This document shows positions 16,493 through 62,632 of a stretch of DNA of 64,000 bases, one piece after another. A program made the translations under genes and the position numbers. The stretch covers positions 14,354-78,353 of the forward strand of contig DATKUF010000036.1 in the NCBI GenBank assembly GCA_035530755.1. The letters run 5' to 3'. The stretch comes from Spirochaetia bacterium. Its GTDB lineage: Bacteria; Spirochaetota; Spirochaetia; DSM-27196; DATKUC01. Within the stretch, counting starts at the first letter, position 1. Each line of letters begins with the position of its first letter. The notes beneath the pieces are model-generated. The model had not been told where the DNA came from. It searched no databases and saw only the letters and a program-made list of their open reading frames with translations.

Positions 16493-17413
16493 GTGAATGA
16501 TACTCGGAAACCACCTGGTTCTTATCCCGCGATCTGGATCCGGGCGTTGCGACCGTGGACTGTCGCCGTTGTAGCGTTTCCGACCACACTCGGCATTGTA
16601 TTCGCGGACGTCGCGGGGCGGGAGGGCCGACTCAAGGCGGCTCTGGTCCTTGTCTCGGCGGTTCTGCTCCAATTCGGAGCCAATATGGTGAACCACTTTT
16701 TCGCATTTGGCAGCTCGGGACCGGATATAGGGCGCACGGATATCGGCGTGTTCGGGCCCGGCCGCTCACGGATCGATTGGCTCGTCTTTCTCTCCGGCAT
16801 CGGGTGCTTTTTTCTTGCTATTCCCTTTGGAATGATTCTCGTCTACCTCGACGGGGTGCCGATCCTTCTGCTTGGCATTGTCGGTTTCGCGACCGCCTAC
16901 TTCTATTCTGCAGAGCCGGTGAACTATAAGCGACGTGGTTTTGCAGTTCCGGCCGCTTTTCTGTTTCTTGGCCTCTGTATGGTTGCGGGTTCAACCTATG
17001 CGGTACTGGAGCGGTTACCCGGTCGAGCGTTGCTCATTTCGTTTCCCGTGGGTTTTCTTGCTGCCGCGCTGCTTCTCGAAGAGGAGCTGCTTGGCGAGAG
17101 GCGAGACCGGGAAAACGGTGTCGGAACGCTCGCCGTCCGTCTGGGCCCGGCGCGCGGCCGGCTGCTTTTCCTTGTCCTCGTAGTTCTCGCCTACCTCTGG
17201 CCTGCCGTTCTGAACGCCGCATCCCGCGTCCCTCATCAGTCGGGACTTCCGATCTATTTCATCTATGCCGCAACCCCGTTTGCTGCAGCTTCGATTCGAC
17301 AGCTCTATCGGTCGCCCGCGCTCGTGAAGAGGCCGATACCGTGGATGCTTCTGCATCACTACGTCTTCGGCATTTTGTACATTGCGGCCAACTTTTCGCG
17401 AGGGCAGCGGTAG
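16493..17413 (+). CDS. UbiA-superfamily prenyltransferase-like membrane protein, MenA-like but with degenerate Asp-rich motifs
   Basis: WIRALRPWTVAVVAFPTTLGIVFA and LLQFGANMVNHFFAFGSSGPD align to the MenA N-terminus. ERRDRENGVGTLAVRLG aligns to the second motif (RDxxxDrenGkxTLxV). Eight or nine TM helices. GTG start. Confidence 0.7.
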   Translation: MNDTRKPPGSYPAIWIRALRPWTVAVVAFPTTLGIVFADVAGREGRLKAALVLVSAVLLQFGANMVNHFFAFGSSGPDIGRTDIGVFGPGRSRIDWLVFLSGIGCFFLAIPFGMILVYLDGVPILLLGIVGFATAYFYSAEPVNYKRRGFAVPAAFLFLGLCMVAGSTYAVLERLPGRALLISFPVGFLAAALLLEEELLGERRDRENGVGTLAVRLGPARGRLLFLVLVVLAYLWPAVLNAASRVPHQSGLPIYFIYAATPFAAASIRQLYRSPALVKRPIPWMLLHHYVFGILYIAANFSRGQR

Positions 17414-17428
17414 ACCCGCGTATCCGGT

Positions 17429-18160
17429 ATGCTGGAGGTACGTGCCTGTTCGGCTGTATATGGCGAAACTCCGGTGTTCGACCCGCTCTCATTTTCCGTC
17501 GCACCAGGCGAGACTCTCGCCGTGGTCGGGCCGTCGGGTTGCGGAAAATCCACGCTGCTTTCAGTAATCGCGGGCCTCAAAACTCCGGCCGGAGGAGAGT
17601 CTCTACTCAATGGAGCTCGAGTTTCCGCGGGTGACGCTTCGCTGATATTGCAGCAGTACGGCCTGTTTCCCTGGTTCACGGTCATGGAAAACGTGGAGCT
17701 TGGCCTGCGTATACGCCGCATTCCGCGTTCCGAACGGCGCGCAAGGGTACGCGCGGAGCTTGGCAACGTTCACCTGACAGGCCTCGAGCATCGTTTTCCG
17801 GCCGCACTCTCAGGTGGGCAGCAGCAGCGAGTGGCCATCGCAAGGGCGCTCGTTCTCGACCCCGCAGTCCTGCTGATGGACGAGCCGTTCTCGTCCCTTG
17901 ATGCACTCACCCGCGAGCGGCTGCAGGAGCTGCTCCTGGAGGTGCTGCGGGTCCGACAAATCCCGTCCATCATCGTGACGCACAGCATCGAAGAGGCGGC
18001 CTACCTGGGTTCATCGATTGCGGTGATGGCGGGGCGTCCGGCACAGCTGCGCATGATCGAGAACCCGGGTCAGGGGGCGGAAGCGTATCGCCTGAATCCC
18101 CGATACTTCGAAACATGTCGCACAGTTCGCGCGACGCTGGAACGGGAGATCGCGCGGTGA
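17429..18160 (+). CDS. ABC transporter ATP-binding protein, NitT/TauT (nitrate/sulfonate/ThiZ-like) family
   Basis: Walker A GPSGCGKSTLL, signature LSGGQQQRVAIARAL, Walker B LLMDEPFSSLD, H-loop IVTHSIEEA. Confidence 0.9.
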   Translation: MLEVRACSAVYGETPVFDPLSFSVAPGETLAVVGPSGCGKSTLLSVIAGLKTPAGGESLLNGARVSAGDASLILQQYGLFPWFTVMENVELGLRIRRIPRSERRARVRAELGNVHLTGLEHRFPAALSGGQQQRVAIARALVLDPAVLLMDEPFSSLDALTRERLQELLLEVLRVRQIPSIIVTHSIEEAAYLGSSIAVMAGRPAQLRMIENPGQGAEAYRLNPRYFETCRTVRATLEREIAR

Positions 18161-18909
18161 AAGGGTGGAGGCGTCGCGCGTTCCGGGCTGCGAGCGCGGT
18201 TCTGGTTATCACTGCTTTATGGGCCACAGCGACACAGCTTCTCGGGAATCGAATAGTGCCCTATCCCTGGGCAGTTTTCGAACGGTTTCTGGCGCTGCTT
18301 CCCGATCCACTGCTCACGCATATGCTGGCGAGCCTCGCGCGCGTGACGGCCGCCCTTGCCGTGAGCTTCGCGGTCGCGCTCCCGCTTGGAGTTGCAATGG
18401 GAAGGATCAAAGCTTTTGACTGGTTGCTCTCACCCGCTTCCTACCTCATGTTCCCCGTCCCGAAGATAGCGCTTCTTCCGGTCGTGCTCCTCGTCTTCGG
18501 ACTGGGAAACGTGGCCAAGGTATTTCTGGTTACGCTGGTGCTCTTCTTCCAGATTCTCACCGCCGTCCGTGACGGGGCCCGCAATATCGATCGGCGCTAC
18601 CTCCTATCTTTCCGGTCGCTCGGTGGATCCCGGCTCCAGTCGGTGCGCTACGTCATATTGCCGGCGCTTCTGCCGAATCTTTTCACCGCATTGCGCGTGG
18701 GTTCGGGGACCGCGCTGGCCGTCCTTTTCTTTGCCGAAACTTTTTTCACCCGCTTTGGTCTCGGGTACATGATCATGGACGCCTGGACTCGCGTCGCCTA
18801 TCTCGACATGTACGTCGGCATCCTGGGATTGAGCCTGCTCGGACTTGCGCTTTTTGCGGCAATAGACCTCGCCGAGCGGCTTCTCTGTCCATGGGCGCGT
18901 CGGGATTGA
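18157..18909 (+). CDS. ABC transporter permease, NitT/TauT (ThiX-like) family
   Basis: Start moved to GTG 18157, which overlaps the ATPase TGA (GTGA). There are six predicted TM helices and an EAA-like loop (SFRSLGGSRLQSVRYVILPALLP). Confidence 0.85.
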   Translation: MKGWRRRAFRAASAVLVITALWATATQLLGNRIVPYPWAVFERFLALLPDPLLTHMLASLARVTAALAVSFAVALPLGVAMGRIKAFDWLLSPASYLMFPVPKIALLPVVLLVFGLGNVAKVFLVTLVLFFQILTAVRDGARNIDRRYLLSFRSLGGSRLQSVRYVILPALLPNLFTALRVGSGTALAVLFFAETFFTRFGLGYMIMDAWTRVAYLDMYVGILGLSLLGLALFAAIDLAERLLCPWARRD

Positions 18910-18943
18910 AGGCCGGACTCCTTCTTCACCCCAGCACCCGTTC

Positions 18944-20077
18944 TTACGGGTTCACGCGGTCGAGTTTTTCGATGGCTGTCACCGCCGCCGGGTCCGGAGG
19001 CCAGTACTCGCCTGAGGGGACCGCCGTGGGGAAAGCTGCTCTTTTGTATTCTGTGTTAGTGATCTCGAATTTCCCTTCGAGTCCGTCCGTGTAGTACACC
19101 TTGTTATCATCCGTGACGAAGATTGCATCGACTCCTTTGAGCATCCGAATGAGCGCGGCGCCCTTATCCAGCCCCATCACGAATATCGAGGTGGACAGAC
19201 CGTCGCAGATCATCGAGACTCCGCTGTAGATAGTCGTGCTCGTAAGGTGCTGCTGAACCGGGTAGCCGGTCTTCGGATCGATGATGTGGTGGTACATCGT
19301 GCCATTCTTGATGAAGTAGCGTTCGTACGGACCGGAAGTCACCACCGACATGTCGGCAGTGCTCACGATTCCGAGGAACGACCCACGGGTCTGAAACGGC
19401 GTCTGTATCCCGATCCTCCAATTTGCTCCGTCCGGTTTGGATCCGAGCACAAGGATGTTTCCACCGAAGTCCAGGATTGCGTGCTTTACCCCGCCCTCTG
19501 CGAGGATACGCTCCGCCTCGTCGGCCGCATAGCCCTTCGCGATTCCGCCCAGATCGATTCCCATCCCCTTCTTCTCGAGATAGACGGAATTATCCGAGTC
19601 GTTGAGTTTGATCCATCTCCAATTGACCAGCGGAAGCAGAGCCTTGATCTCATCGGGCGACGGAAGCCGTTCGTGGTCCGTTCCTATTCCCCAGAGTTTG
19701 ACTATGGGGCCGACGGTTATGTCGAAGGCGCCGTTGGTAAGCCGGCTGAAGTCCAGTGACGTTTTGATTACGCCGTAGACGTCCGGTGTTACAGGAACCG
19801 GTCTGATGCCCGCCTCCTGATTTATCTTGTCGACCTCGCTTTCGGTACCCTCGGTGGTCATTCTGTTGTGAATGTCGCGCACTCGTGCAAATGCCCGGTC
19901 GAGAACTGCAGAGTTCACCCGGTCATAAACGGTCATCGTAATTGTGGTTCCGAGCAGCAATTCGGTTCGGGATATCGGTTTCGCCGGTCCTCCGGCGCAG
20001 GCTGTCAGCGTGAGCGCCGTCAATCCGAAGAGCATTAAGACTCCCGTGGATATCCGGCCGGTTGTTGATCTGTTCAT
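18944..20077 (-). CDS. apbE: FAD:protein FMN transferase ApbE, lipoprotein
   Basis: Signal plus lipobox (VLMLFGLTALTLTACAGG). ApbE core: GIDLGGIAKGYAADEA, TSGPYERYF, YHHIIDPKTGYP, CDGLSTSIFVMG. There is a ~50-aa C-terminal extension. Confidence 0.9.
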   Translation of the reverse strand: MNRSTTGRISTGVLMLFGLTALTLTACAGGPAKPISRTELLLGTTITMTVYDRVNSAVLDRAFARVRDIHNRMTTEGTESEVDKINQEAGIRPVPVTPDVYGVIKTSLDFSRLTNGAFDITVGPIVKLWGIGTDHERLPSPDEIKALLPLVNWRWIKLNDSDNSVYLEKKGMGIDLGGIAKGYAADEAERILAEGGVKHAILDFGGNILVLGSKPDGANWRIGIQTPFQTRGSFLGIVSTADMSVVTSGPYERYFIKNGTMYHHIIDPKTGYPVQQHLTSTTIYSGVSMICDGLSTSIFVMGLDKGAALIRMLKGVDAIFVTDDNKVYYTDGLEGKFEITNTEYKRAAFPTAVPSGEYWPPDPAAVTAIEKLDRVNP

Positions 20078-20254
20078 GATGAAATCAATAGTACCATAAT
20101 TATCGAATTCGGGTCAATGTATTACTCTTTTGGACGTAAAATAGGGATTAGTTGCTTTACATTATTCGATAAATGTTGTACGATAATTTTCAACCCAGAC
20201 AGAACCAATCTTTGGCCTTCCTTTGGCAGCCCAAAGTTTGCGGAGGACCGTTGT

Positions 20255-22453
20255 ATGGCAGAGAAAACACGTATTTCTATCCTTGGTGCCGGCTACGCCG
20301 GAATTGCTGCAGCGAAGTTGCTCTACAAAAGGTACAAGAAGAAACAGGATGTAGAGATAACCGTAATCGATCGCAACCCGTACCACACTTTGATGACTGA
20401 GTTGCATGAAATTGCCGGGTCCCGCACCGAACCGGGAGCTGTACAGGTGAGCCTTGCAAAGATATTCGGCGGGACAAGCGTCAACGTAGTCATCGATGAA
20501 ATCCAGACTATCGACTTCGAAAATAACCGACTGGTGTCAAAGATCGCCGAATATCCCTACGACCACCTCATAATTGGTGCGGGAGCCGAACCGGAATTCT
20601 TCGGAACACCGGGCGTGCAGGAGCACTCCTTCACCTGCTGGTCGCTCGAAGACGCCATCCGCATCCGCACTCACGTTGAAGACATGTTTCGGGCCGCAGC
20701 GAAGGAACCCGACGAAGCGCAGCGCCGGGAACAGCTGACCTTCGTCATAGCTGGGGCGGGTTTCACCGGAATTGAGCTTGCGGGAGAGCTTCTGGAGCGG
20801 CGCGATGTGCTTTGCACGCAGTACCACATCAATCCCGATGAGGTTCGGGTCATTATCGTGGAGATGAAGGATACGATTCTCCCCATCCTGCCCCCTTGGC
20901 CGGTCAAAAAGGCGGCAAAGTACCTGGCAAAACGTGGAGCCGAGGTGATGCTCAACGCGCCGGTCGCCGAGGCAGCTCCGGGCCGGGTCAAAGTCGGCGG
21001 CGATCACGACGTCGAGATACGAACCCAGACATTCATCTGGACCTGCGGAGTGCATGGGTCCGAATTCACCTCAAAAATCGTCCTCACGAAAGGAAGCTGC
21101 TCACCCGATCACAATGCGGTGGCCTCCATCGAAGGCATCCACGGAATGGCCGGTTGTCATTTCGACGACGACGAACGCTACATCGTGGGAGAACGCGGAC
21201 GCATTCTCGTCAACAAATACTCCCAGTCGGTAGACTTCAAGAATGTCTACCTCGTCGGCGATGTCATGTGGTATGTCATCAACGGAAAAGTCGTGCCTCA
21301 GATCGTAGAGACCGCACTGCAGTCGGGCGACGTAGCCGCCAGAAACATCGTATCCGATATCGAAGGCGGCGAAAAAGAGGAATTCCAGCCAAGGTACCAC
21401 GGGTTTATGGTATCAATCGGCGGCAGGTACGGTGTGGCTCACGGAATGGGGATGTCCTTCTCGGGTTTCATGGCGATGGGCGCGAAACATCTCATCAACA
21501 TGCACTATCTGCTTGGACTCACCGGTATCAACGCTGTGTGGGAGTACATGCAGCACGAGTTTTTCACCATAAAGGACCATCGTTCCTTCATCGGCGGACA
21601 TCTTGCGTGGAAAGTTCCTTCCTACTGGACCTTCCCCTTGCGCCTCTGGCTTGGCGGGAAATGGCTGTACGAAGGCATTAAAAAGATAACGGAAGGCTGG
21701 CTCAACCCGGGTAAAGAGGGGTTGTCCAACGTCTGGACCGGAGCCATCAAGATGCCGGGCGTTCACTTCGCAGCCCCCGTGGCCAACGCCGCAGGGCAGG
21801 CGGCCGGGCACGCCGCCGAAGCAACCTCTGCCGCAACAGCGGTTGCGCAGGCTGCCCCCGCGGCGGCGCAGGCGGCAGCCGACGCGACCTCCGCAGCAAC
21901 CGGAGCCGTCGCCCAGGCTGCGACCGCAGCAGCCCAGACGGCGGCAGACGCGACGTCAGCTGCAACCGGCGCAGTCGCCCAGGCAGCTACCGGAGCGGCG
22001 CAGCACGTAGCAGCCGCAGCGAGTCAGTACGGGCAGCCGCTCAGCGGGCCGTGGGGCATCTACACCTGGTTCGCCCAGAACGTCCTGAGCGCGTCACCGC
22101 TGCTTTCGTTTCTGCTCCAGACCCTGGTGGTAATCATCGAGGTCGGCATCGGACTCGCTTTCGTGGGCGGCGCTTTCACATGGCTTGCGGCCCTCGTTTC
22201 GATCCTGCTCGGCCTGATGTTCATCGCCTCCGGATGGGGGAGCAACGAGATTCTCTGGTACATGTTTGCTGCTCTTGTCATGTTCGGCGGTGCCGGCCGC
22301 GGCCTCGGTCTCGATCACTGGATCATGCCGTGGCTCAAGGATCGCTGGAACGGTACGGGATTTGCAAAGCGCACGTTCCTCTACACCGACGAACCGCGCG
22401 ATCGCTGGTCCCGGAAAGGTCGCCCTGCGAAAGAGCTCGCGGGAAAAAAATAG
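20255..22453 (+). CDS. Type II NADH:quinone oxidoreductase (NDH-2) fused to a C-terminal DoxX/DoxD-like membrane domain interrupted by an Ala-rich tandem repeat
   Basis: Start moved to ATG 20255, after a GGAGGA Shine-Dalgarno sequence. Two Rossmann motifs (ISILGAGYAGIAA, FVIAGAGFTGIELAGEL) and YLVGDV. The C-terminus has DoxX-like helices (TFPLRLWLGGKWLYEGIKKI ... LQTLVVIIEVGIGLAFVGGAFTWLAALVSILLGLMFIASGWG). Confidence 0.85.
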   Translation: MAEKTRISILGAGYAGIAAAKLLYKRYKKKQDVEITVIDRNPYHTLMTELHEIAGSRTEPGAVQVSLAKIFGGTSVNVVIDEIQTIDFENNRLVSKIAEYPYDHLIIGAGAEPEFFGTPGVQEHSFTCWSLEDAIRIRTHVEDMFRAAAKEPDEAQRREQLTFVIAGAGFTGIELAGELLERRDVLCTQYHINPDEVRVIIVEMKDTILPILPPWPVKKAAKYLAKRGAEVMLNAPVAEAAPGRVKVGGDHDVEIRTQTFIWTCGVHGSEFTSKIVLTKGSCSPDHNAVASIEGIHGMAGCHFDDDERYIVGERGRILVNKYSQSVDFKNVYLVGDVMWYVINGKVVPQIVETALQSGDVAARNIVSDIEGGEKEEFQPRYHGFMVSIGGRYGVAHGMGMSFSGFMAMGAKHLINMHYLLGLTGINAVWEYMQHEFFTIKDHRSFIGGHLAWKVPSYWTFPLRLWLGGKWLYEGIKKITEGWLNPGKEGLSNVWTGAIKMPGVHFAAPVANAAGQAAGHAAEATSAATAVAQAAPAAAQAAADATSAATGAVAQAATAAAQTAADATSAATGAVAQAATGAAQHVAAAASQYGQPLSGPWGIYTWFAQNVLSASPLLSFLLQTLVVIIEVGIGLAFVGGAFTWLAALVSILLGLMFIASGWGSNEILWYMFAALVMFGGAGRGLGLDHWIMPWLKDRWNGTGFAKRTFLYTDEPRDRWSRKGRPAKELAGKK
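21812..22006 (+). repeat. In-frame tandem repeat (63+66+66 nt) encoding an Ala-rich 21/22-aa unit inside the NDH-2 fusion gene
   Basis: Codon-by-codon reading gives three units: AAEATSAATAVAQAAPAAAQA (21812-21874), AADATSAATGAVAQAATAAAQT (21875-21940) and AADATSAATGAVAQAATGAAQH (21941-22006). Confidence 0.9.
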
Positions 22454-29156: not shown

Positions 29157-30689
29157 CTACAGAAGCCTGTTGCGTATCTCTGCGCTCACATAGTCCAGAA
29201 TTGCTACGGTGATCGCGATGAACCAGACTGCTATTCCTGCCTCCCGATACTGAAGGAGACGAATATACTGAAAAAGTATGAAGCCGATTCCGCCGCCGCC
29301 CACTACTCCGATAATCGTCGACATACGCACGTTGATGTCCCACCGATAGATGGAGAATGAGATGAACGGCGATATCATCTGCGGGATGACCGCATACATG
29401 ATTGTCTGCAGCCGCCCCGCGCCGGTCGCCTGGATCGCTTCGATTGGTCCGTGGTCGATACCCTCGATTGCTTCCGAGTAGAGTTTTCCGAGCGCCGCCA
29501 CCGAATGCAGGGTGAGCGCGATGATTCCGGCGAATGGACCCAGGCCCACCCAGACTACCGCGATCAGCGCCCAGATAAGCGGCTCTATCGAGCGCACAAT
29601 GTTGAGAATCGTGCGGGTGAGGAAGTAGATGGCCATCGTGACCCAGGAACCTGACATGATGTTGCGGGACGCAAGAAACGCGATCGGGATCGAGAAGAGT
29701 ATGCCGAAGAAGGTGGCCATCATGCCCATCATGATAGTCTCGACCATCCGTGCGACCGTCAACTTCAGCGCATCGCTGGGAAGCGGGGGGCCGGAGCGGG
29801 AGACCTGGCGCGCTTCGGCTGTGTCGTACTGGGGGCCTTTCGCACTCGGCGGGACCAGTTGGTAGGGCATCGCGAACGAGGTTTCGAATGCACCTGCGGC
29901 GTCAGTCGTGACGCTTACGTATTTGCCACCCTCCCGGGGTTGAAACTCGTTTCCGATCGGGTCGATCCACCATATCTCGGTCCTGGTGTTCGGCCGGAAA
30001 TTGCCGCCCGACAGATGCAGCACCGTCCCGGGTATCATCTGGTTGCTGTCGCTCACTCGGGAGAGCTCGCCCCGGGTCGGCTCCACAATGAGATATGGTT
30101 CTTTCGATTTCTTCTCATTCGGCAGGGGGGCCGGAAACTCCGTGCCTATCAGCACTTTCGCATCCGCGGAGACCGTCTGGTCCTTGTAGGTAATCCCTGC
30201 TTCCCACGGCCACAGTACTTTGGAAAGAGGTCCCCACGCTTTCGGCGCCTCGGTTACCATCTTGCCGAGGTCAATTTCGGAAATCTGCCAGCCGAGCGCG
30301 AAGAATGCTACGATGATTGCGGCAAACAGACCGATGGCCCCCGATTTGCGGCGCAGTTTGGCCGACCGGTAGGCATCCCACGCGGTCCAGAGCCATGCGG
30401 CAATCGTCGCTAAGAGCACCAGAATAAGAAAAAACGGTCGGCGTCCGATTGCTTTCAGGAAGATATCCTGAGATCCGGTCAACCGGGGCGCGAGCGCCAC
30501 CATTCGCGAAATGAACAGCGCGATAATTCCGGTCAAAGAAAGGATAATGAGAATTCCGCGGCCGACTTGCCGGTTGAGTATCTGGCCAAGTCCCGGAACG
30601 AGAAGGGATGCGATTCCGGAAACCGGCGCCGGGAAGAGCGGACGGACCGATACGTCGTTTCGATTCTTTGTCTTCTTGTTGCGGGGCAT
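29157..30689 (-). CDS. phnE: Phosphonate/phosphite-type ABC permease PhnE with N-terminal TM extension and a large extracytoplasmic insertion
   Basis: The C-terminal ~200 aa form the PhnE core (VETIMMGMMATFFGILFSIPIAFLASRN; EAA loop IEAIQATGAGRLQTIMYAVIPQMISP). 510 aa total. The start overlaps the phnC stop. Confidence 0.85.
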   Translation of the reverse strand: MPRNKKTKNRNDVSVRPLFPAPVSGIASLLVPGLGQILNRQVGRGILIILSLTGIIALFISRMVALAPRLTGSQDIFLKAIGRRPFFLILVLLATIAAWLWTAWDAYRSAKLRRKSGAIGLFAAIIVAFFALGWQISEIDLGKMVTEAPKAWGPLSKVLWPWEAGITYKDQTVSADAKVLIGTEFPAPLPNEKKSKEPYLIVEPTRGELSRVSDSNQMIPGTVLHLSGGNFRPNTRTEIWWIDPIGNEFQPREGGKYVSVTTDAAGAFETSFAMPYQLVPPSAKGPQYDTAEARQVSRSGPPLPSDALKLTVARMVETIMMGMMATFFGILFSIPIAFLASRNIMSGSWVTMAIYFLTRTILNIVRSIEPLIWALIAVVWVGLGPFAGIIALTLHSVAALGKLYSEAIEGIDHGPIEAIQATGAGRLQTIMYAVIPQMISPFISFSIYRWDINVRMSTIIGVVGGGGIGFILFQYIRLLQYREAGIAVWFIAITVAILDYVSAEIRNRLL

Positions 30690-31489
30690 TACTCGCCGTC
30701 CTTTTGCTGTTCGCCGGTGAGCGGACCGGTGGCGACCCGTACTGCCTCTTCGCCGTAGATCTCTTTGAACTGTTCGTCGGTCATGTTCCGGATGTCCTCG
30801 CGGGAGCCCTGATAGACAAGCCGCCCTGCCCGAAGGCCGATAACCTGGGTTGCGTAACGCTGTACCAGATCAAGGTAGTGGAGGCTGCAAATGATCGTCA
30901 TGCCCTCATCACGATTGAGCTGCTCGAGGTAACCGAGAATGGTATGAGCGAGTACCGGATCGAGACTCGCGACCGGCTCATCGGCAAGTATGATCGAGGG
31001 CTCCTGCATCAGCGCGCGCGCAATGCCGACACGTTGCTGCTGACCTCCGGAGAGCTCGCTTGCCCGCTTGTTGGATTGTTCGGTGAGTCCGACCCTTTTC
31101 AGCGCGTGGACCGCGCGCTCCCGGTCCTCGCGTGGAAACCTGTGCAGCAGGGTGGGCCAGGTGTTCACATATCCGAGTCTGCCCGCCATGACATTCGTGA
31201 GCACGCTCGAACGACGGACGAGGTTGAAGTGCTGGAAAATCATCCCGATCCTTCGCCTGACCTTCCTCAGCGCCGTTGAATCGGCTGCGGTAACATCCTC
31301 GCCGTCCCACATAATCTTGCCGCTGGTGGGCTCGATGAGCCGGTTGATGCACCGGAGCAGCGTCGATTTTCCGGAACCGGAAAGACCGATTACCACAAGG
31401 AACTCGCCTTCTTTGACCGAGAAGCTCACTTCTTCGAGTGCGCGTGTTCCGTCGTCGTAGACCTTCGTGAGATTCGTTATTTCCAGCAT
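30689..31489 (-). CDS. phnC: Phosphonate-type ABC transporter ATP-binding protein PhnC
   Basis: MLEITNLTKVYDDGTRALEEVSFSV.., Walker A GLSGSGKSTLLRCINRL, signature LSGGQQQRVGIARAL, Walker B IILADEPVASLD. Confidence 0.9.
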   Translation of the reverse strand: MLEITNLTKVYDDGTRALEEVSFSVKEGEFLVVIGLSGSGKSTLLRCINRLIEPTSGKIMWDGEDVTAADSTALRKVRRRIGMIFQHFNLVRRSSVLTNVMAGRLGYVNTWPTLLHRFPREDRERAVHALKRVGLTEQSNKRASELSGGQQQRVGIARALMQEPSIILADEPVASLDPVLAHTILGYLEQLNRDEGMTIICSLHYLDLVQRYATQVIGLRAGRLVYQGSREDIRNMTDEQFKEIYGEEAVRVATGPLTGEQQKDGE

Positions 31490-31657
31490 CAGATACTACC
31501 GTTCGTATTTTAACCGCAGAGCCAAAAAAAAGGCTACCCTGCCGAAACAGTTGCGGGATCCCTCGAGGCCGGCGGGACGACCGGCAAGTCGGTCTCGGTT
31601 CGGCATCGATGGTGGTCTCGTTCTATTCTCCGACCAGGATAGCGCTTCCGTCGATCG

Positions 31658-31683
31658 CAGACCCGGGCTTTCGTCCGGGCCTG
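31658..31683 (-). other. Intercistronic stem-loop between phnD and phnC
   Basis: The minus strand reads CAGGCCCGG-ACGAAAGC-CCGGGTCTG, a 9-bp stem including one G-U pair. It sits directly after the phnD stop inside a 205-nt intercistronic gap. No U-tract follows. Confidence 0.35.
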
Positions 31684-31694
31684 CACAGGAAAAC

Positions 31695-32603
31695 TTACTT
31701 CATCAGGTCTTCGATCTTCATTCCGGAAGACTGCAGAACCTGGCGGAACGGGTCATAGAAGTTGTCTCCCTGCTTTTCGAGACCGGTCCAGGAGTAGGCC
31801 TTCTTCAAGGCATCTTTTCCCTCCGGCGTCTGGGCGATTTCGAGCAGTGCGTTCGTTATCTTGTCGCGAAGATCCTGTGGGACCGTCTTCTGGAACTGCA
31901 CGCCGTCATTCGGGATGTTCACCGATACATTGATAACCTTGACCTTGTCGTTTACGTCCGGATGGTCCTTCTGAATATTCTGGCGCGCATCCACGAAGGT
32001 CGCACCTGCGTCGACGTCTCCGTTATAGACAGCCGTCACAACGGCGGTGTGCCCACCGGCGTCGACAATCTGTTTCAGATCCTTCTCCGGGTTGATTCCT
32101 GCGGCTCTCATGGTCAATTCGGGAATGATCCAGCCACTGGTTGACAAGGGATCCGGGCGCGCGAAGGTTTTTCCTTTCAGGTCTGCGAGAGTCTTTATGC
32201 CGCTTTTTACGTTCGCGATGATCTGGCCGTTGTAGTAGGGCGTCCCGAACCTCACCGCAACAAGGGCGGCCTGTGCCACACCCCGGTCCGCCGCGAGGAC
32301 GTAGGCGAACGTTGCAAGTGAAGCCATGTGAGCCTTCGGCGGTGTGCTAGAAAGCGCTTCAATGACTCCGGCGTAGTCGGTCGCGACCATTACTTTGAAG
32401 TAGAGGCCGGTCTTCTTGAACAACAGGTCCGATACCGCCTGCCCACCCGCAACAATTGTTTGTGTATCACCGGACGGAACGAATGCCCATATGATTGGGT
32501 TTTCTTCCGTGCCCAGTTTCTGAGCCTCTTTGGCTCCCGCTGCCATTGCCAATCCAGCACTCACTAGCAATACCAGGAGCGCAAGGAACACTCTCTTCAT
32601 CAC
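31695..32603 (-). CDS. phnD: Phosphate/phosphite/phosphonate ABC substrate-binding protein PhnD
   Basis: Signal peptide MMKRVFLALLVLLVSAGLAMAAG. PhnD-like blocks: NPIIWAFVPSGDTQ, ATDYAGVIEAL and FARPDPLSTSGWIIP. Confidence 0.85.
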   Translation of the reverse strand: MMKRVFLALLVLLVSAGLAMAAGAKEAQKLGTEENPIIWAFVPSGDTQTIVAGGQAVSDLLFKKTGLYFKVMVATDYAGVIEALSSTPPKAHMASLATFAYVLAADRGVAQAALVAVRFGTPYYNGQIIANVKSGIKTLADLKGKTFARPDPLSTSGWIIPELTMRAAGINPEKDLKQIVDAGGHTAVVTAVYNGDVDAGATFVDARQNIQKDHPDVNDKVKVINVSVNIPNDGVQFQKTVPQDLRDKITNALLEIAQTPEGKDALKKAYSWTGLEKQGDNFYDPFRQVLQSSGMKIEDLMK

Positions 32604-58635: not shown

Positions 58636-59748
58636 ATGAATACTCTCTCTCAGCATGCCCGGGAGAAGCTGTCGGCTTTCGCGAGAGCTCTTGTCGATCA
58701 GAGTGCGGCGAAAGTCATCGTCCCCCCGCAGGAGTCCCGTGAAGGATTCTGGTTCGGAGCCGGAAACCTCTCCATCGGTCCGGATGGCGCGATGTACCTC
58801 ATCGGAAGATACAGGAACTTTGGTGACTCCCGGACCGGACTCGGCGCAGGAACACGCGGCCTCGAGCTCGCGATCTTCCGATCGACCGACCGTGGGAAGA
58901 GCTTCACAAAGATCGTGAGTTTTTCGAAATCCGGCTTGAACAACGGAAAGCGGGAAGTTGTATCGATAGAGGGGGCGAAACTCCTGTTCGGTGATGGCGG
59001 AGTAGAGCTTTTTGTCTCGACCGAAAAGAGGGGAATTGCCTATCCGGCCGGGCTCGAAGCTTTTCTGAAACCCGGAACCGGCGTGTGGACAATCGACCAC
59101 GCCCGCGCCGACTCAGTTGAGGGGCTCGCCGACGCGGCGATTGATCCGCTCATCGAGTGCAGCGATCCCCGGTGGCTTCACGTAAAGGATCCGGCAATTC
59201 ACCGAAGCCCGGGCGGCGAGACGGTGCTCTACTTCTGTACGCATCCGTTCAACTGGTCGAGCGCCAACACCGGAATGGCAGTGCGCCCGGCAGGCAGCGA
59301 CAGTTTCGGCGAGCCTGACTTCGAGCGGTTCCCCCGCGGATTCACCTGGGATGTTGCGGCAAGCAGGGTGACCGGCATGGTTCCGGTTCCGCCGGTCGGT
59401 GCGTTCGCAGACCGGCGACAAATCTTCATACTCTTTTACGACGGAGCGGAGTCTCTTCGGAAATACGATGAACATCCGTCCGCAGTCAGCCGGCCGAGAG
59501 GATACTCATGCGAGGAGCTCGGTGGCGCTGCGTTCAGCGACGAAGGACTCATCGGCCCGATCGAACGGCTCTCGCAGACACTCCCGTACTTCGTGAGTCC
59601 GCATGGAACGGGCTGCAGCCGGTATGTCGATGTGCTCGAGACCGAAGAGGGTTACTACGCGAGCTGGCAGCAGTCGCAGCCTGACCGCTCGCAGCCGCTT
59701 GTCCTCAACTTCGTCCCGCGAGCGGACGTGGAACGCATTCTTCGATAG
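58636..59748 (+). CDS. Hypothetical protein with a BNR/Asp-box-like motif; possible beta-propeller glycosidase of the sugar operon
   Basis: There is no signal peptide. RSTDRGKSF fits the Asp-box pattern S-x-D-x-G-x-[ST]-[WF]. The rest is beta-rich, and it is the last gene of the ROK-regulated CUT1 operon. Family not recognised by eye. Confidence 0.4.
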   Translation: MNTLSQHAREKLSAFARALVDQSAAKVIVPPQESREGFWFGAGNLSIGPDGAMYLIGRYRNFGDSRTGLGAGTRGLELAIFRSTDRGKSFTKIVSFSKSGLNNGKREVVSIEGAKLLFGDGGVELFVSTEKRGIAYPAGLEAFLKPGTGVWTIDHARADSVEGLADAAIDPLIECSDPRWLHVKDPAIHRSPGGETVLYFCTHPFNWSSANTGMAVRPAGSDSFGEPDFERFPRGFTWDVAASRVTGMVPVPPVGAFADRRQIFILFYDGAESLRKYDEHPSAVSRPRGYSCEELGGAAFSDEGLIGPIERLSQTLPYFVSPHGTGCSRYVDVLETEEGYYASWQQSQPDRSQPLVLNFVPRADVERILR

Positions 59749-59758
59749 GGCCTCGCGG

Positions 59759-60784
59759 CTATGGCTGTTGCGCCAGCGGGTTCACGATGCTTTCCGCCGC
59801 ATAGACGGACGGAATCAGACCCATTGCCGTCATCGTTCTGATCGACTCCTGATAGCGGGCAGTGTCAATGTACCCGTAGCCTTTGGGCGAATTCCAGAGG
59901 TCCGCCGTCGTGCGCAGAGCGCTGGTGAGAAAGGGTCTCTGGCTCTCGTTGGCGCCGTTGATGTATTTCATCGCTATTGTGACCGATTCGTCTATATGGC
60001 CTGCAGTGTATTCCATCGCCCTTTTCGTCGCCTCGAAAAAACGTTCGAGGACATCGGCGCGGTTTTTGAGATCCGCCTTGGAGCTGATAAACGACGAGCT
60101 CACGAGGTTCGAGAAATTCATGACGTCCCATGCGTTGATGGGCACATTCATCTGCCGGAGCTTCACCGGCTCGTTCGTCACGAAAACGACGGCGCCCGCA
60201 ATTTTGTCGCTGAGCAGAGCCGGAATCTGCGTATAACCGATCTTTTCGACTTTGACTTTGTCCTTGAGATTGTAGTGTTCGAGGAAGAGCTGAAGCCCGA
60301 TATAGCTCGTGCCGAACAGCTCGGGAACTCCAATGGTTTTTCCGGCAAAATCCGCCGGAGTGTCCACCACGCCTTTCCTGGCTACAATTGTCACCGGATA
60401 TCGCTCGTAGTACTGAAAGGCCGCGGCGAGCGCAAGTCCCTTCGATCCGGCGATTATGAGCTGATCCGAGTCGGCAAGCCCGACATCGATCTTCCCTGCA
60501 AGAAGCAGCGAGTAGATGTCCATGCCGAATCCGTACTCAATCTTCAGATCAACGCCAGCGTCCCGGTAGTAGCCCTTTTCAATTCCGACGTACAACGGCG
60601 TAAACTGGATATTGGGGATGTAGGCGATTGCAAGCTTTACCGGATCGAGCTGCTGCGCGTGCGCCAGCGGTAAGGCTGCCGTCATGAGTAGAAGCACAAG
60701 TCCGGTCATTCGCGACGCACCGCCGCGCGGCCGCGTGATCCACTTAATGAATGCCGTGAAGGTCTCCCGCATCTGTTCTCTCAT
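59759..60784 (-). CDS. ABC substrate-binding protein, NMT1/THI5-like (ThiY/RibY-like)
   Basis: Start moved to ATG 60784, 2 nt after the stop of the upstream gene. Signal MTGLVLLLMTAALPLAHA. Blocks: LKIEYGFGMDIYSLLLAGKIDVGLADSDQLIIAGSKG and GKTIGVPELFGTSYIGLQLFL. Confidence 0.8.
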   Translation of the reverse strand: MREQMRETFTAFIKWITRPRGGASRMTGLVLLLMTAALPLAHAQQLDPVKLAIAYIPNIQFTPLYVGIEKGYYRDAGVDLKIEYGFGMDIYSLLLAGKIDVGLADSDQLIIAGSKGLALAAAFQYYERYPVTIVARKGVVDTPADFAGKTIGVPELFGTSYIGLQLFLEHYNLKDKVKVEKIGYTQIPALLSDKIAGAVVFVTNEPVKLRQMNVPINAWDVMNFSNLVSSSFISSKADLKNRADVLERFFEATKRAMEYTAGHIDESVTIAMKYINGANESQRPFLTSALRTTADLWNSPKGYGYIDTARYQESIRTMTAMGLIPSVYAAESIVNPLAQQP

Positions 60785-60786
60785 AT

Positions 60787-62367
60787 CTATCTCCTTGAAC
60801 CTGATTTTCTCTTTGCCTGAATGAGCGCATAAAGTCCGCTTGCGATACCAAAATAGAAGAGCCCGAGGAAACCGAGCCACAAAAGCCCGACGAACATCAG
60901 CTCCATGTCGAAATTCGCCTTCGCCAGATTCACGAGTGCACCAAGCCCATCCTGTCCGGATACGAACTCGCCGACGACCGCGCCGATAACCGACAGAGTA
61001 ATCGAGACCTTGATCCCGCTGAAAATGACCGGGAGTGCCGCCGGAAGCTCGAACCTGGTGAATGCACGCCTGCGCGTCGGTCTGTAGAAGCGTACAAGCG
61101 TGCGCACCCGCTCCTCCGCCAGGTGAATGGCCGAAATGTTGTTGATGAGCATCGGAAAGAACATGAGAATGACGGCGGTTGTTACCTTCGGCGCGAAACC
61201 GAACCCGAACCAGAGCACCAGGAAAGGTGCGAGCGCTACGGCGGGGATAGTGTTCAGCGCGATAAGATGAGGCATCATGAGATTGGAGGCGACTTTAGAT
61301 TTTGCTATTGCATATCCGAGAACCAGCGTAAGGACAAAGGCGATCAGGAATCCGGTCGCCGATTCGTAGACAGTGGCCGCGAGGTTCGGGAGGATCGACC
61401 CGTCAAGCAGCGTCGATACGAAACGGGTGATTATGGCCGCAGGCGCGGGAAAAATGTAGTCGGGGACCTTGAACCGGCTTTTCACGAATGAGAGAAGCAG
61501 AAAGATGACGACGGCTTCTACCGGGATGAGCCAGCGATTGTAGTTTCTCTTGAAACTGCCGAGTAGTTTCGCTGCGATTCCGGTCGGCGGTTTCACGGTC
61601 TGAAGCTCGACCGCGGGTTCAGGCCGCGTGCTCCACAGTGCCTTGGCCTCTGCCCGGATCGACCTGTCCACACGTGATTCCGCATCGGTCAGCGAAAATT
61701 GTTCTCTGCTCTCCTGTCCGTTACGTTCAATGCGCTCAGTTTTGATGATTCCCGCAGGTTTGTTTGATAGCACGTAAACCGTGTCTGAAAGAAAGCAGGC
61801 CTCCTCGACCGAGTGCGTAACCATGACAACCGTCTGGTCTGCCCGCGAGTGGATATTCTTGATGAGGATGTTCAATCGTTCCCGGCTTATTATGTCGAGA
61901 GAGGAGAATGGCTCATCGAGCACCAGCAATTCCGGACGTGTTACCAGCGCCCGAGCGATCTCGACGCGCTTCTTCATCCCCCCGGATAGCTCATTCGGGA
62001 ACAGGTGTTCGTAACCTTCGAGGCCGACGGTCTCCAGGATGTGAAGCGCGCGTTTACGGATCTCTTCGGTTACCGGGATTCCGCGAGACTCAAACGGGAG
62101 AAGCACATTCGACAATGCATCGCGCCATTCCAGCAGCGAATCATGCTGAAACACGAATGATGTGTTGGCAGTCGAGACTTCCACGGATCCCTCAAAATGG
62201 CGATGCATCCCGAGCAGAATATAGAGCAGCGTCGTTTTACCGCAACCGGAGGGGCCGACGAATGAGACGAACTGATTCTGGCGTACATCGAAGGAAATGT
62301 CCCGAAGCACGGGATTTGCAAAAGCAAAATTCAGATTTTGGACGTGAATGAGCGTTGCATCATCCAT
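60787..62367 (-). CDS. Fused ABC ATPase (N-terminal) and NitT/TauT-type permease (C-terminal)
   Basis: N-terminal half: GPSGCGKTTLL, LSGGMKKRVEIARAL, LVLDEPFSSLD, VTHSVEEA. C-terminal half: six TM helices with an EAA-like loop (LVRFYRPTRRRAFTRFELPAALP). Single 526-aa ORF. Confidence 0.9.
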   Translation of the reverse strand: MDDATLIHVQNLNFAFANPVLRDISFDVRQNQFVSFVGPSGCGKTTLLYILLGMHRHFEGSVEVSTANTSFVFQHDSLLEWRDALSNVLLPFESRGIPVTEEIRKRALHILETVGLEGYEHLFPNELSGGMKKRVEIARALVTRPELLVLDEPFSSLDIISRERLNILIKNIHSRADQTVVMVTHSVEEACFLSDTVYVLSNKPAGIIKTERIERNGQESREQFSLTDAESRVDRSIRAEAKALWSTRPEPAVELQTVKPPTGIAAKLLGSFKRNYNRWLIPVEAVVIFLLLSFVKSRFKVPDYIFPAPAAIITRFVSTLLDGSILPNLAATVYESATGFLIAFVLTLVLGYAIAKSKVASNLMMPHLIALNTIPAVALAPFLVLWFGFGFAPKVTTAVILMFFPMLINNISAIHLAEERVRTLVRFYRPTRRRAFTRFELPAALPVIFSGIKVSITLSVIGAVVGEFVSGQDGLGALVNLAKANFDMELMFVGLLWLGFLGLFYFGIASGLYALIQAKRKSGSRR

Positions 62368-62375
62368 TCGATAGA

Positions 62376-62395
62376 CTCCGCGCTTCTTCGCGGAG
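62376..62395 (-). promoter_or_regulatory. Shine-Dalgarno-sequestering hairpin (expression platform of the FMN riboswitch)
   Basis: The minus strand reads CTCCGCG-AAGAAG-CGCGGAG. The 3' arm contains the GGAG Shine-Dalgarno sequence, 9 nt before the ATG at 62367. Confidence 0.4.
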
Positions 62396-62466
62396 AGAGT
62401 GTGGGAGAGTGAAGGTCAAGAAAGGATCTCAATAGATAGACTACTATCGACAAGATAACCTTTCTC

Positions 62467-62585
62467 TCTTCTCCCATCCAGACTCTCACTGTCGGCAACG
62501 GAATCTCACCGTTTCCCCCGCTGGCATGGCTGCCACCGGATTGCGGACTATAACCGCCGGTCGGGATTTCTCCCTCCCTCGAAGA
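62467..62585 (-). promoter_or_regulatory. FMN riboswitch (RFN element) aptamer
   Basis: The minus strand reads TCTTCGAGGGAGGGAGAAATCCCGACCGGCGGTTATAGTCCGCAATCCGG ... GGGGGAAACGGTGAGATTCCGTTGCCGACAGTGAGAGTCTGGATGGGAGAAGA. This matches the invariant RFN cores (GGG.GAAA.TCCCGACCGGCGGT..AGTCCGC and GGTGA.ATTCC...GCCGACAGT.A.AGTCTGGATGGGAGAAG). P1 closes as TCTTC/GAAGA. Confidence 0.9.
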
Positions 62586-62603
62586 AAAAAGGTTGTTCTA
62601 GCA

Positions 62604-62632
62604 TAGATACGATTTTCAACGTGATTAGTCAA
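62604..62632 (-). promoter_or_regulatory. Candidate sigma70 promoter driving the riboswitch-controlled operon
   Basis: The minus strand reads TTGACT (62632-62627), a 17-nt spacer, then TATCTA (62609-62604), about 20 nt upstream of the aptamer. Confidence 0.45.

What the first reader, a model, noticed from the sequence alone, without database searches (positions are those of the whole stretch)
59759..62367. Riboswitch-controlled ThiXYZ/RibXY-like ABC importer with ATPase and permease fused into one polypeptide: candidate riboflavin uptake system
- **Operon (seen directly):** the FMN riboswitch controls a two-gene operon.
  - The first gene is a 526-aa fusion of a NitT/TauT-type ATPase (GPSGCGKTTLL, LSGGMKKRVEIARAL) to its six-TM permease.
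  - The second, starting 2 nt after the first gene's stop, is an NMT1/THI5-like binding protein.
- **Family context:** this family normally carries HMP/thiamine precursors (ThiXYZ) or sulfonates/nitrate.
- **Established knowledge:** an FMN riboswitch in front of a transporter is the classical signature of flavin uptake. A RibXY ABC system of this family was predicted by comparative genomics, but to my knowledge it has little or no biochemical characterisation.
- **Architecture:** the fused ATPase-permease is an unusual arrangement for an importer.
Basis: inference. Interest (0 to 1): 0.65.

Follow-up and report, generated by a model that had tools for sequence, protein, structure and literature searches.

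The report
Riboswitch-controlled riboflavin ABC importer, fused subunits
This is a vitamin B2 (riboflavin) uptake operon, switched off by an FMN-sensing RNA, in an uncultured spirochaete; it belongs to the already validated RibXY(Z) transporter family and differs mainly in having its ATPase and membrane subunits joined into one protein, so it is a tidy but unsurprising find.

Summary
An FMN riboswitch (97 bits, 62462-62590, minus strand) precedes a 526-aa protein. That protein is an N-terminal NitT/TauT-type ABC ATPase joined by a disordered linker to a six-helix type I importer permease. An NMT1/THI5-type binding protein starts 2 nt after its stop.

All three modules are homologous to the FMN-riboswitch-linked ribX-ribY-ribZ genes of Anaerolinea, where they are separate genes. 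The binding protein resembles that RibY far more (141 bits) than ThiY (49 bits).

Of 44 related genomic loci, 42 are Spirochaetota MAGs:
- 37 of the 39 Spirochaetota/KSB3 loci that show both modules keep the fusion.
- 31 of 38 assessable loci keep the FMN riboswitch.
- None has a TPP riboswitch.

The riboflavin-importer reading is therefore well supported, but the novelty premise is overstated. Chloroflexus RibXY has complemented an E. coli riboflavin auxotroph, and its RibY binds flavins (2015 papers). ATPase-permease fusions in this family are numerous in sequence databases, and some are already auto-named "putative riboflavin transport system permease".

What seems undescribed is the fused RibZX form and its spread in Spirochaetota, for which one 2015 survey listed only RfuABCD. 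Substrate specificity and the switching mechanism in this leader remain inferred.

The parts
62462..62590 (-). FMN riboswitch aptamer (RFN element)
   Evidence: Rfam RF00050, 97.0 bits against a gathering threshold of 66.2, E=3.5e-21, full-length model match. The same element lies upstream of the orthologous operon in 29 related loci. Its 3' end is also present in 2 truncated loci.
62368..62461 (-). 94-nt leader and expression platform. It contains a pyrimidine-rich tract (about 62396-62425) that can pair with the 3' half of the aptamer. It also contains a hairpin (62376-62395, CUCCGCG-AAGAAG-CGCGGAG) whose 3' arm holds the Shine-Dalgarno GGAG (62376-62379), 8 nt before the ATG.
   Evidence: Sequence read directly. 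The clade consensus structure pairs the P1 3' strand with the downstream pyrimidine tract. No terminator-like site was found in the leader. The switching logic was not resolved: the SD is predicted to be paired whether P1 is enforced or blocked.
60787..62367 (-). ribZX: one 526-aa polypeptide. Residues 1-245 are the NitT/TauT-type ABC ATPase (about nt 61633-62367). Residues 246-263 are a disordered linker. Residues 264-526 are a six-TM type I importer permease (about nt 60790-61578).
   Evidence: Pfam PF00005 plus PF00528. ATPase motifs and six hydrophobic segments. AlphaFold2 mean pLDDT 84.3, with the only internal low-confidence stretch at 248-263. ATPase part 43% identical to Anaerolinea RibZ and permease part 41% identical to RibX. 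The fusion is conserved in 37 of 39 loci.
59759..60784 (-). ribY: 341-aa periplasmic substrate-binding protein of the NMT1/THI5 fold. A predicted Sec signal peptide covers residues 1-43 (..LPLAHA|QQ, nt 60656-60784). The gene is likely translationally coupled to ribZX (2-nt gap, AAGGAG 6 nt upstream of the ATG).
   Evidence: Pfam PF09084, 118 bits. AlphaFold2 pLDDT 93.6. Best structural matches are ThiY 3ix1, thiamin-binding 4nmy and THI5. It is 29% identical (141 bits) to the riboswitch-linked RibY of Anaerolinea, against 48.9 bits to ThiY. The signal peptide is read from the sequence and is an inference.

Best explanation
**What it is.** This is an FMN-repressed, binding-protein-dependent type I ABC importer for riboflavin. 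It belongs to the RibXY(Z) branch of the NitT/TauT family, in an uncultured Spirochaetia bacterium.

**Proposed mechanism (all steps inferred from homology and anatomy; none is shown experimentally for this locus)**
1. Periplasmic RibY captures riboflavin and docks on the transporter.
2. Two copies of RibZX form the transporter. This gives 2 x 6 TM helices and 2 ATPase domains, each ATPase tethered to its own permease by a flexible linker of about 18 residues.
3. ATP hydrolysis drives uptake.
4. Once in the cell, riboflavin is converted to FMN.
5. When FMN is plentiful it binds the leader aptamer. This stabilises P1 and shuts down expression, most likely by blocking ribosome access to the Shine-Dalgarno sequence.
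6. ribY is translated by coupling to ribZX.
For: **Regulation**
- There is a full-length FMN aptamer immediately upstream on the same strand.

**Homology of all three modules**
- Each module is homologous to the FMN-riboswitch-linked ribX / ribY / ribZ genes of Anaerolinea thermophila (locus L044). The permease scores 162 bits, the ATPase 167 bits and the SBP 141 bits.
- The SBP scores only 48.9 bits against ThiY.
- Motifs shared with RibY but not with ThiY include IPNIQF-P-Y, Y-YP, IGYTQ and NEP.

**Comparative genomics of the 44 related loci**
- 29 loci have the riboswitch by Rfam, and 2 truncated loci keep its 3' end.
- 7 loci lack it and 6 cannot be assessed.
- No locus has a TPP riboswitch or any other riboswitch.

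**Expression platforms in relatives**
- In 12 relatives the start codon lies 2-5 nt after the aptamer, so the SD sits in the P1 3' strand (GGGAGAAGGAAGGA-NNN-AUG). This is a direct translational off-switch.
- A KSB3 relative has a classical terminator instead.

**Transporter competence and direction**
- The ATPase motifs are intact and there are six TM segments, with basic residues before TM1.
- The BPD_transp_1 fold together with a secreted SBP indicates import.

**Family-level experimental support (literature)**
- C. aurantiacus ribXY rescues E. coli ribB at low riboflavin, and its RibY binds flavins (PMC4418817).
- RibXY was first predicted from FMN regulons (PMC3766115).
Against: - No binding or transport data exist for this clade. 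Identity to the nearest riboswitch-linked Chloroflexi RibY is only 29%.
- I could not obtain the characterised C. aurantiacus RibY sequence for a direct comparison.
- One subclade of 7 loci, plus a 46%-identical fused homologue (L045), has no riboswitch. Regulation by FMN is therefore not universal. The binding-protein residues that are invariant elsewhere are retained in that subclade.
- For this particular leader, thermodynamic folding predicts the SD hairpin both with and without P1. The on/off logic is therefore not demonstrated.
- No structure coordinates were available to inspect an isoalloxazine pocket.
Confidence: 0.8

Rival explanations
1. The transporter imports a flavin-related compound other than riboflavin. 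Candidates are FMN or FAD, lumichrome, a lumazine precursor, or an analogue such as roseoflavin. The FMN riboswitch would then report only the end product of the pathway.
For: - The riboswitch senses FMN, not the transported molecule, so any FMN precursor would fit.
- The SBP is only 29% identical to the Chloroflexi RibY.
- C. aurantiacus RibY is described as binding 'flavins' in general (PMC4418817).
- The NMT1 fold also accommodates other planar cofactors, for example PqqT with PQQ, among the structural matches.
- The same window encodes an ApbE/Ftp flavin transferase lipoprotein, which hints at a periplasmic flavin economy.
Against: - Every experimentally tested FMN-riboswitch-linked transporter cited in PMC4418817 (RibU, RibM, RibN, ImpX, RibZ of Clostridium, RibXY) supports riboflavin uptake.
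- Nothing in the operon, such as a phosphatase or hydrolase, suggests processing of a different substrate.
Confidence: 0.12
2. It is a ThiXYZ-type importer of thiamine pyrimidine precursors (HMP/FAMP), or of sulfonates or nitrate, which merely sits behind an FMN riboswitch.
For: - The closest solved structures are ThiY (3ix1, Foldseek E=3e-25) and a thiamin-bound SBP (4nmy).
- The ATPase best matches sulfonate, taurine and nitrate ATPase models.
- In four of the riboswitch-less loci the operon is divergent from a TPP-dependent E1 dehydrogenase gene. Pfam confirmed this for L011, and the others were judged by sequence resemblance.
Against: - Identity to ThiY is only about 21%. The residues shared with RibY differ in ThiY.
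- No TPP riboswitch (RF00059) occurs in the window or in any of the 45 related loci, whereas the FMN element is present in 31.
- All NCBIfam sulfonate and taurine SBP models score far below their cut-offs, for example 30.9 bits against a cut-off of 163.5.
Confidence: 0.04
3. The ATPase-permease fusion is an artefact (a frameshift or misassembly joining two genes) or a decaying pseudogene, and the real system has separate RibZ and RibX.
For: - Chloroflexi have separate genes.
- Two related loci (L009, L022) show the modules in different frames.
Against: - The modules share one continuous ORF in 37 of 39 loci from independent assemblies.
- The 120 best protein clusters listed are nearly all fused.
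- The gene order differs from Chloroflexi: ATPase first here, last there. Simple read-through of ribX-ribY-ribZ therefore cannot produce this fusion.
- The junction has conserved residues and a confident AlphaFold model on both sides.
- L009 and L022 are the exceptions and look like frameshift errors.
Confidence: 0.01

Closest known systems
RibXY / RibXYZ riboflavin ABC importer of Chloroflexi (C. aurantiacus Caur_0816-0817; Anaerolinea thermophila ribXYZ)
   Same: - It has an FMN riboswitch leader, a COG0600-type permease, a COG0715/NMT1-type binding protein and a NitT/TauT ATPase.
- All three modules are detectably homologous to the Anaerolinea genes (41%, 29% and 43% identity).
- The inferred function is the same. 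For Chloroflexus that function is backed by auxotroph complementation and flavin binding (PMC4418817).
   Different: - The ATPase is fused to the N-terminus of the permease. In Chloroflexi it is absent from the operon (C. aurantiacus, PMC3766115) or encoded as a separate third gene (Anaerolinea).
- The gene order is ZX-Y rather than X-Y-Z.
- The host phylum is Spirochaetota, which the 2015 survey does not list for RibXY.
- The SBP has a Sec-type signal peptide, whereas the Anaerolinea protein has a lipobox.
- Divergence is deep, with 29% SBP identity.
ThiXYZ / ThiY (HMP/FAMP importer, Bacillus halodurans; PDB 3ix1) and the thiamin-binding SBP 4nmy
   Same: - It shares the NMT1/THI5 periplasmic-binding fold (TM-score 0.74-0.83).
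- It belongs to the same NitT/TauT transporter family, and it is a vitamin-related importer under riboswitch control.
   Different: - It is controlled by an FMN riboswitch, not a TPP riboswitch.
- Identity is only 19-21%.
- The RibY-type motifs (IPNIQF-P-Y, IGYTQ, NEP) are replaced in ThiY.
- The ThiXYZ subunits are separate proteins.
RfuABCD riboflavin ABC importer of spirochaetes (Treponema pallidum)
   Same: It is a riboflavin uptake ABC system in the same phylum. In Spirochaeta smaragdinae it is also preceded by an FMN riboswitch (PMC4418817).
   Different: It belongs to an unrelated ABC family. PMC4418817 lists COG3845, COG4603 and COG1079 for its ATPase and permease genes. From my own knowledge, RfuA is a Bmp-type lipoprotein and the system has a duplicated ATPase and two permeases. 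No Rfu-like genes are next to this locus.
NrtBCD / CmpBCD nitrate and bicarbonate transporters (PDB 8w9m, 8wm7, 9u9z)
   Same: These are the closest solved transporter structures for the ATPase module (Foldseek E about 1e-17, 31-34% identity). They belong to the same NitT/TauT family and are type I importers.
   Different: - The substrates differ.
- Their ATPases are separate chains; NrtC and CmpC are fused to an SBP-like regulatory domain, not to the permease.
- They have no riboswitch.

Membership tests
RibXY(Z) riboflavin ABC importer | FMN riboswitch (RF00050) in the leader of the transporter operon | tested here: met
   97 bits against a gathering threshold of 66.2, on the same strand, 94 nt upstream of the start codon. 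The element is conserved in 31 of 38 assessable orthologous loci.
RibXY(Z) riboflavin ABC importer | RibX: NitT/TauT (COG0600, BPD_transp_1) permease homologous to Chloroflexi RibX | tested here: met
   PF00528 at 78 bits. tblastn gives 41% identity and 162 bits to the permease gene that follows the FMN riboswitch in Anaerolinea L044.
RibXY(Z) riboflavin ABC importer | RibY: co-transcribed NMT1/COG0715 binding protein that is closer to RibY than to ThiY or SsuA | tested here: met
   PF09084 at 118 bits. The SBP scores 141 bits to Anaerolinea RibY, 48.9 bits to ThiY and at most 31 bits to SsuA/TauA models. Caveat: no comparison with the experimentally studied C. aurantiacus RibY could be made.
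RibXY(Z) riboflavin ABC importer | Subunits encoded as separate polypeptides (permease and SBP, with the ATPase absent or a separate ribZ) | tested here: not met
   The ATPase and permease form one 526-aa ORF. This is an architectural difference and does not conflict with the function.
RibXY(Z) riboflavin ABC importer | Binding protein binds riboflavin or flavins, and the system supports riboflavin uptake | not testable with these tools
   This is known only for C. aurantiacus RibXY/RibY (PMC4418817). It requires purified protein or complementation assays.
ThiXYZ thiamine-pyrimidine importer | TPP riboswitch control or membership of a thiamine regulon | tested here: not met
   No RF00059 match occurs in the window or in any related locus. 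That includes the permissive searches (E<=1 for the seven riboswitch-less loci; E<=0.1 for L045).
ThiXYZ thiamine-pyrimidine importer | ThiY-like binding protein | tested here: inconclusive
   The fold is the same (3ix1, TM 0.74/0.83). Identity is only 21%, and the motifs shared with RibY are replaced in ThiY. Pocket geometry could not be inspected.
Type I binding-protein-dependent ABC importer | BPD_transp_1 permease with a coupling (EAA-like) loop, a catalytically complete NBD and a secreted SBP | tested here: met
   PF00528 and PF00005 both match. Walker A and B, the signature and the H-loop are present, with six TM segments. A divergent EAA-type loop (..FYRP..FELPAALP) is conserved across 68 homologues. 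The SBP has an N-terminal signal sequence, read.

The most novel reading that the evidence does not exclude
The fused RibZX/RibY clade may be more than a gene-fusion copy of RibXYZ. It could be a functionally distinct flavin importer that takes up FMN, FAD or flavin breakdown products. These would feed the periplasmic ApbE/Ftp flavinylation economy typical of spirochaetes. It would work as a homodimeric single-chain NBD-TMD type I importer, an arrangement for which no solved structure turned up.
Probability: 0.12. Interest if true: 0.5.

Novelty: new variant of a known kind. Interest (0 to 1): 0.3.

Why it matters
**What it adds**
- It extends the experimentally validated RibXY riboflavin importer family to free-living Spirochaetota. 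One 2015 survey of riboflavin transporters listed only RfuABCD for that phylum.
- In this lineage the ATPase missing from the original RibXY description is dedicated and physically tethered to the permease.

**Possible uses**
- For annotation: NCBIfam has no RibY model, and the protein is currently named only as a generic ABC substrate-binding protein. The riboswitch-linked clade defined here could seed such a model.
- For structural biology: a homodimeric NBD-TMD type I importer with a small, fluorescent ligand would be a convenient model. No RibY structure and no fused type I importer structure turned up in the PDB searches.

**Limits**
- None of this overturns current understanding.

Tried and rejected
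1. **Retrieving C. aurantiacus RibY (Caur_0817).** I tried a homologue search seeded with Anaerolinea RibY. The top 120 hits that carry a name are all Chloroflexi/Anaerolineales MAGs. The PLoS One supplements give locus tags only. The Rodionova paper is not held. The comparison therefore rests on Anaerolinea RibY.
2. **AFDB search.** A Foldseek search of AFDB50 for annotated RibY models was not possible because the library is unavailable.
3. **Modelling the riboswitch.**
   - The MFE, sub-sequence folds and constrained partition functions all keep the SD hairpin, with or without P1.
   - The five-sequence consensus fold supports only the anti-P1 helix, with little covariation.
   - No intrinsic terminator or sigma-70 consensus promoter was found on the minus strand. 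A TTGACT at 62627-62632 is at best a weak -35 candidate.
   - Translational control is therefore inferred mainly from relatives whose SD lies inside P1.
4. **Fusion as artefact.** Rejected.
5. **ThiXYZ or sulfonate reading.** Rejected on riboswitch type and similarity scores.
6. **Riboswitch-less subclade as a different specificity.** Not supported. The residues invariant in riboswitch-linked SBPs are retained, apart from conservative changes and one truncated sequence.
7. **Second NitT/TauT pair in the window (17429-18909).** It is not a recent split copy of the fused gene. The permease is only 27% identical.
Full report
**1. Observation**

- The window holds one FMN riboswitch (Rfam RF00050) at 62462-62590 on the minus strand. 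It scores 97 bits against a gathering score of 66.2, E=3.5e-21, with the full model matched.
- Ninety-four nucleotides downstream, an ATG at 62367 opens a 526-aa ORF that ends at 60787.
- Pfam finds ABC_tran at residues 21-154 and BPD_transp_1 at 348-510.
- Walker A, the signature, Walker B and the H-loop are intact, and six hydrophobic segments lie between residues 279 and 516.
- NCBIfam places the ATPase nearest to sulfonate, taurine and nitrate (NitT/TauT) ATPases, all below their equivalog cut-offs.
- The stop codon TAG (60789-60787) is followed after 2 nt by an ATG at 60784, which is preceded by AAGGAG. This opens a 341-aa NMT1/THI5 protein (PF09084, 118 bits) ending at 59759.
- Gene calls on the public source contig (ENA ERZ27256847 k141_83858, 87 kb) are identical.
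- The operon is bounded by a divergent M16 peptidase gene upstream and by a convergent gene whose stop lies 10 nt from the ribY stop.

**2. Organism and relatives**

- The binding protein is identical to an NCBI entry from a 'Spirochaetia bacterium' MAG. The nearest named relative is Salinispira pacifica, at 79-82% identity.
- A scan of one genome per GTDB species, using an alignment of the binding protein, returned 44 loci. These are 42 Spirochaetota MAGs, one KSB3 MAG and one Anaerolinea thermophila MAG.

**3. Is the fusion real and conserved?**

- In 37 of the 39 Spirochaetota/KSB3 loci where both modules are on the contig, the ATPase and permease lie in one stop-to-stop frame. The two exceptions look like frameshift errors.
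- The 120 best protein clusters (51-92% identity) are nearly all 510-670 aa and carry both Pfam domains; one is a partial entry.
- AlphaFold2 models both domains confidently (mean pLDDT 84.3). A disordered linker lies at about 246-263.
- Basic residues (KRNYNR) precede TM1. This suggests an N-terminus-in topology, which a cytoplasmic ATPase requires.
- In Anaerolinea the homologous genes are separate and in a different order: riboswitch, permease, binding protein, ATPase. The spirochaete fusion is therefore a rearrangement, not read-through.

**4. Is it the riboflavin system?**

- Against the Anaerolinea locus, the permease part is 41% identical, the ATPase part 43% and the binding protein 29% (141 bits, E=4e-44).
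- The best solved relative, ThiY (3ix1), reaches only 48.9 bits. The NCBIfam sulfonate and taurine binding-protein models (SsuA_fam, taurine_ABC_bnd) score at most 31 bits.
- The structural search of the confident model (pLDDT 93.6) finds ThiY, the thiamin-binding 4nmy and THI5 at 16-21% identity. PqqT appears further down the list. No RibY structure exists in the PDB copy.
- Motifs conserved between the spirochaete proteins and Anaerolinea RibY are replaced in ThiY. They include I56-P57, Q60-F61, P63, Y65, Y126, Y129-P130, I182-G-Y-T-Q186 and N204-E205. That these are flavin-binding residues is inference only.

**5.

| Category | Loci |
|---|---|
| FMN riboswitch found by Rfam, same strand, upstream | 29 of 44 |
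| Truncated contigs that keep the aptamer 3' end (L004, L016) | 2 |
| Contig ends too early to judge | 6 |
| No riboswitch even at E<=1 | 7 |
| TPP riboswitch or any other riboswitch | 0 |

- The seven riboswitch-less loci form a single subclade of the binding-protein tree.
- That subclade keeps the residues that are invariant elsewhere. This argues for a lineage-specific loss or change of regulation rather than a new specificity.
- A more distant fused homologue (46% identity, L045) also lacks the element and sits directly after sppA.
- The window's own subclade (L001-L005) is riboswitch-linked throughout.

**6. Regulation**

- Relatives show three kinds of expression platform.
  - In 12 loci the start codon lies 2-5 nt after the aptamer, so the Shine-Dalgarno sequence is part of the P1 3' strand.
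  - In the KSB3 locus a GC-rich hairpin followed by a U-run is a classical terminator.
  - In the window's subclade there is an extra leader of about 85-95 nt.
- In the window, the GGAG at 62376-62379 sits in the 3' arm of a hairpin (62376-62395).
- A pyrimidine-rich tract can pair with the aptamer's P6/P1 3' strands. That helix is the consensus fold of the five closest leaders, but covariation support is weak.
- Constrained partition functions predict the SD to be paired whether P1 is enforced or blocked.
- No terminator-like site occurs in the leader.
- I therefore infer translational repression by analogy with the relatives. The switching logic of this leader remains unresolved.

**7. Comparison with what is known**

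- RibXY was predicted from FMN regulons in Chloroflexi. It was described as a ThiXYZ homologue lacking an ATPase (PMC3766115).
- C. aurantiacus ribXY then restored growth of E. coli ribB at low riboflavin. The same paper cites work showing that RibY binds flavins, and notes that a ribZ ATPase gene accompanies ribXY in a few Chloroflexi (PMC4418817).
- That survey lists RibXY in Actinobacteria, Chloroflexi, Proteobacteria and Thermobaculum. For Spirochaetes it lists only RfuABCD (supplements).
- The family and its function are thus established.

**8. How unusual is the fusion?**

- A review states that the TMD and NBD of importers are individual chains (PMC4245157).
- An exhaustive HMMER search of 1.84 billion cluster representatives tells a different story. 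By my manual tally of the top 150, about 38 are full-length collinear ATPase-permease proteins of 28-62% identity.
- About 27 more appear to have the reverse domain order.
- JGI already labels some fused relatives 'putative riboflavin transport system permease protein'.
- No solved structure covered both domains convincingly.
- The fusion is under-described rather than rare.

**9. Verdict**

- This is a new architectural and taxonomic variant of a known, validated transporter family.
- My confidence that this is an FMN-repressed riboflavin (or close flavin) importer is about 0.8.
- The main residual uncertainty is the exact ligand and the mechanism of the expression platform.

Noticed in passing
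window 16493-20077: An ApbE/Ftp flavin-transferase lipoprotein (18944-20077, minus; PF02424, 312 bits) lies next to a second, unfused NitT/TauT-type ATPase (17429-18160) and permease (18115-18909). No binding-protein gene is adjacent, and a UbiA-like membrane protein (16493-17413) precedes them. The permease is only 27% identical to the fused gene and the ATPase 39%.
   Followed up: partly
L010, L011, L014, L020, L024, L025, L041 (related loci): One subclade of orthologous fused operons has no FMN riboswitch or any other Rfam element, even at E<=1. In L011, L020, L024 and L025 the operon is divergent from a roughly 730-aa fused E1 alpha/beta TPP-dependent dehydrogenase gene (Pfam-checked in L011 only). 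In L014 and L041 it is divergent from a DctP-type TRAP binding protein. How these copies are regulated is unknown.
   Followed up: partly
L008, L012, L013, L015, L017, L018, L021, L023, L027, L029, L032, L043; L026: Expression platforms for the same operon are diverse. In twelve loci the start codon lies 2-5 nt after the aptamer, so the SD is inside the P1 3' strand. The KSB3 locus L026 instead has a classical GC hairpin plus U-run terminator.
   Followed up: partly
L045 3001-5497: A fused ATPase-permease (46% identity) and a RibY-like SBP (44% identity, RibY-type motifs kept) follow dnaB and sppA. The gap to sppA is only 3 nt and there is no riboswitch, so this is a possibly constitutive or differently regulated copy in an unidentified metagenomic organism.
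   Followed up: partly
window 20117-22453 (+): A 778-aa protein has an N-terminal Pyr_redox_2 (NDH-2-like) domain, an Ala/Thr/Gln-rich repetitive stretch and a hydrophobic C-terminal region. This is an unusual architecture and lies next to apbE.
   Followed up: no
window 58636-59748 (+): A 370-aa protein has no Pfam family apart from a sub-threshold BNR-like hit. It is the last gene of a ROK regulator / SBP_bac_1 / two-permease sugar operon, and its stop codon is 10 nt from the ribY stop (convergent).
   Followed up: no
window 29157-32603 (-): A phosphonate-type ABC system is encoded here. It comprises a PhnD-like binding protein (PF12974), an ATPase and a 510-aa permease in which only the C-terminal third (residues 334-500) matches BPD_transp_1.
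   Followed up: no
L009, L022: In these two long-contig MAG loci the fused gene is split across reading frames. They are probably assembly frameshifts rather than true split genes.
   Followed up: no
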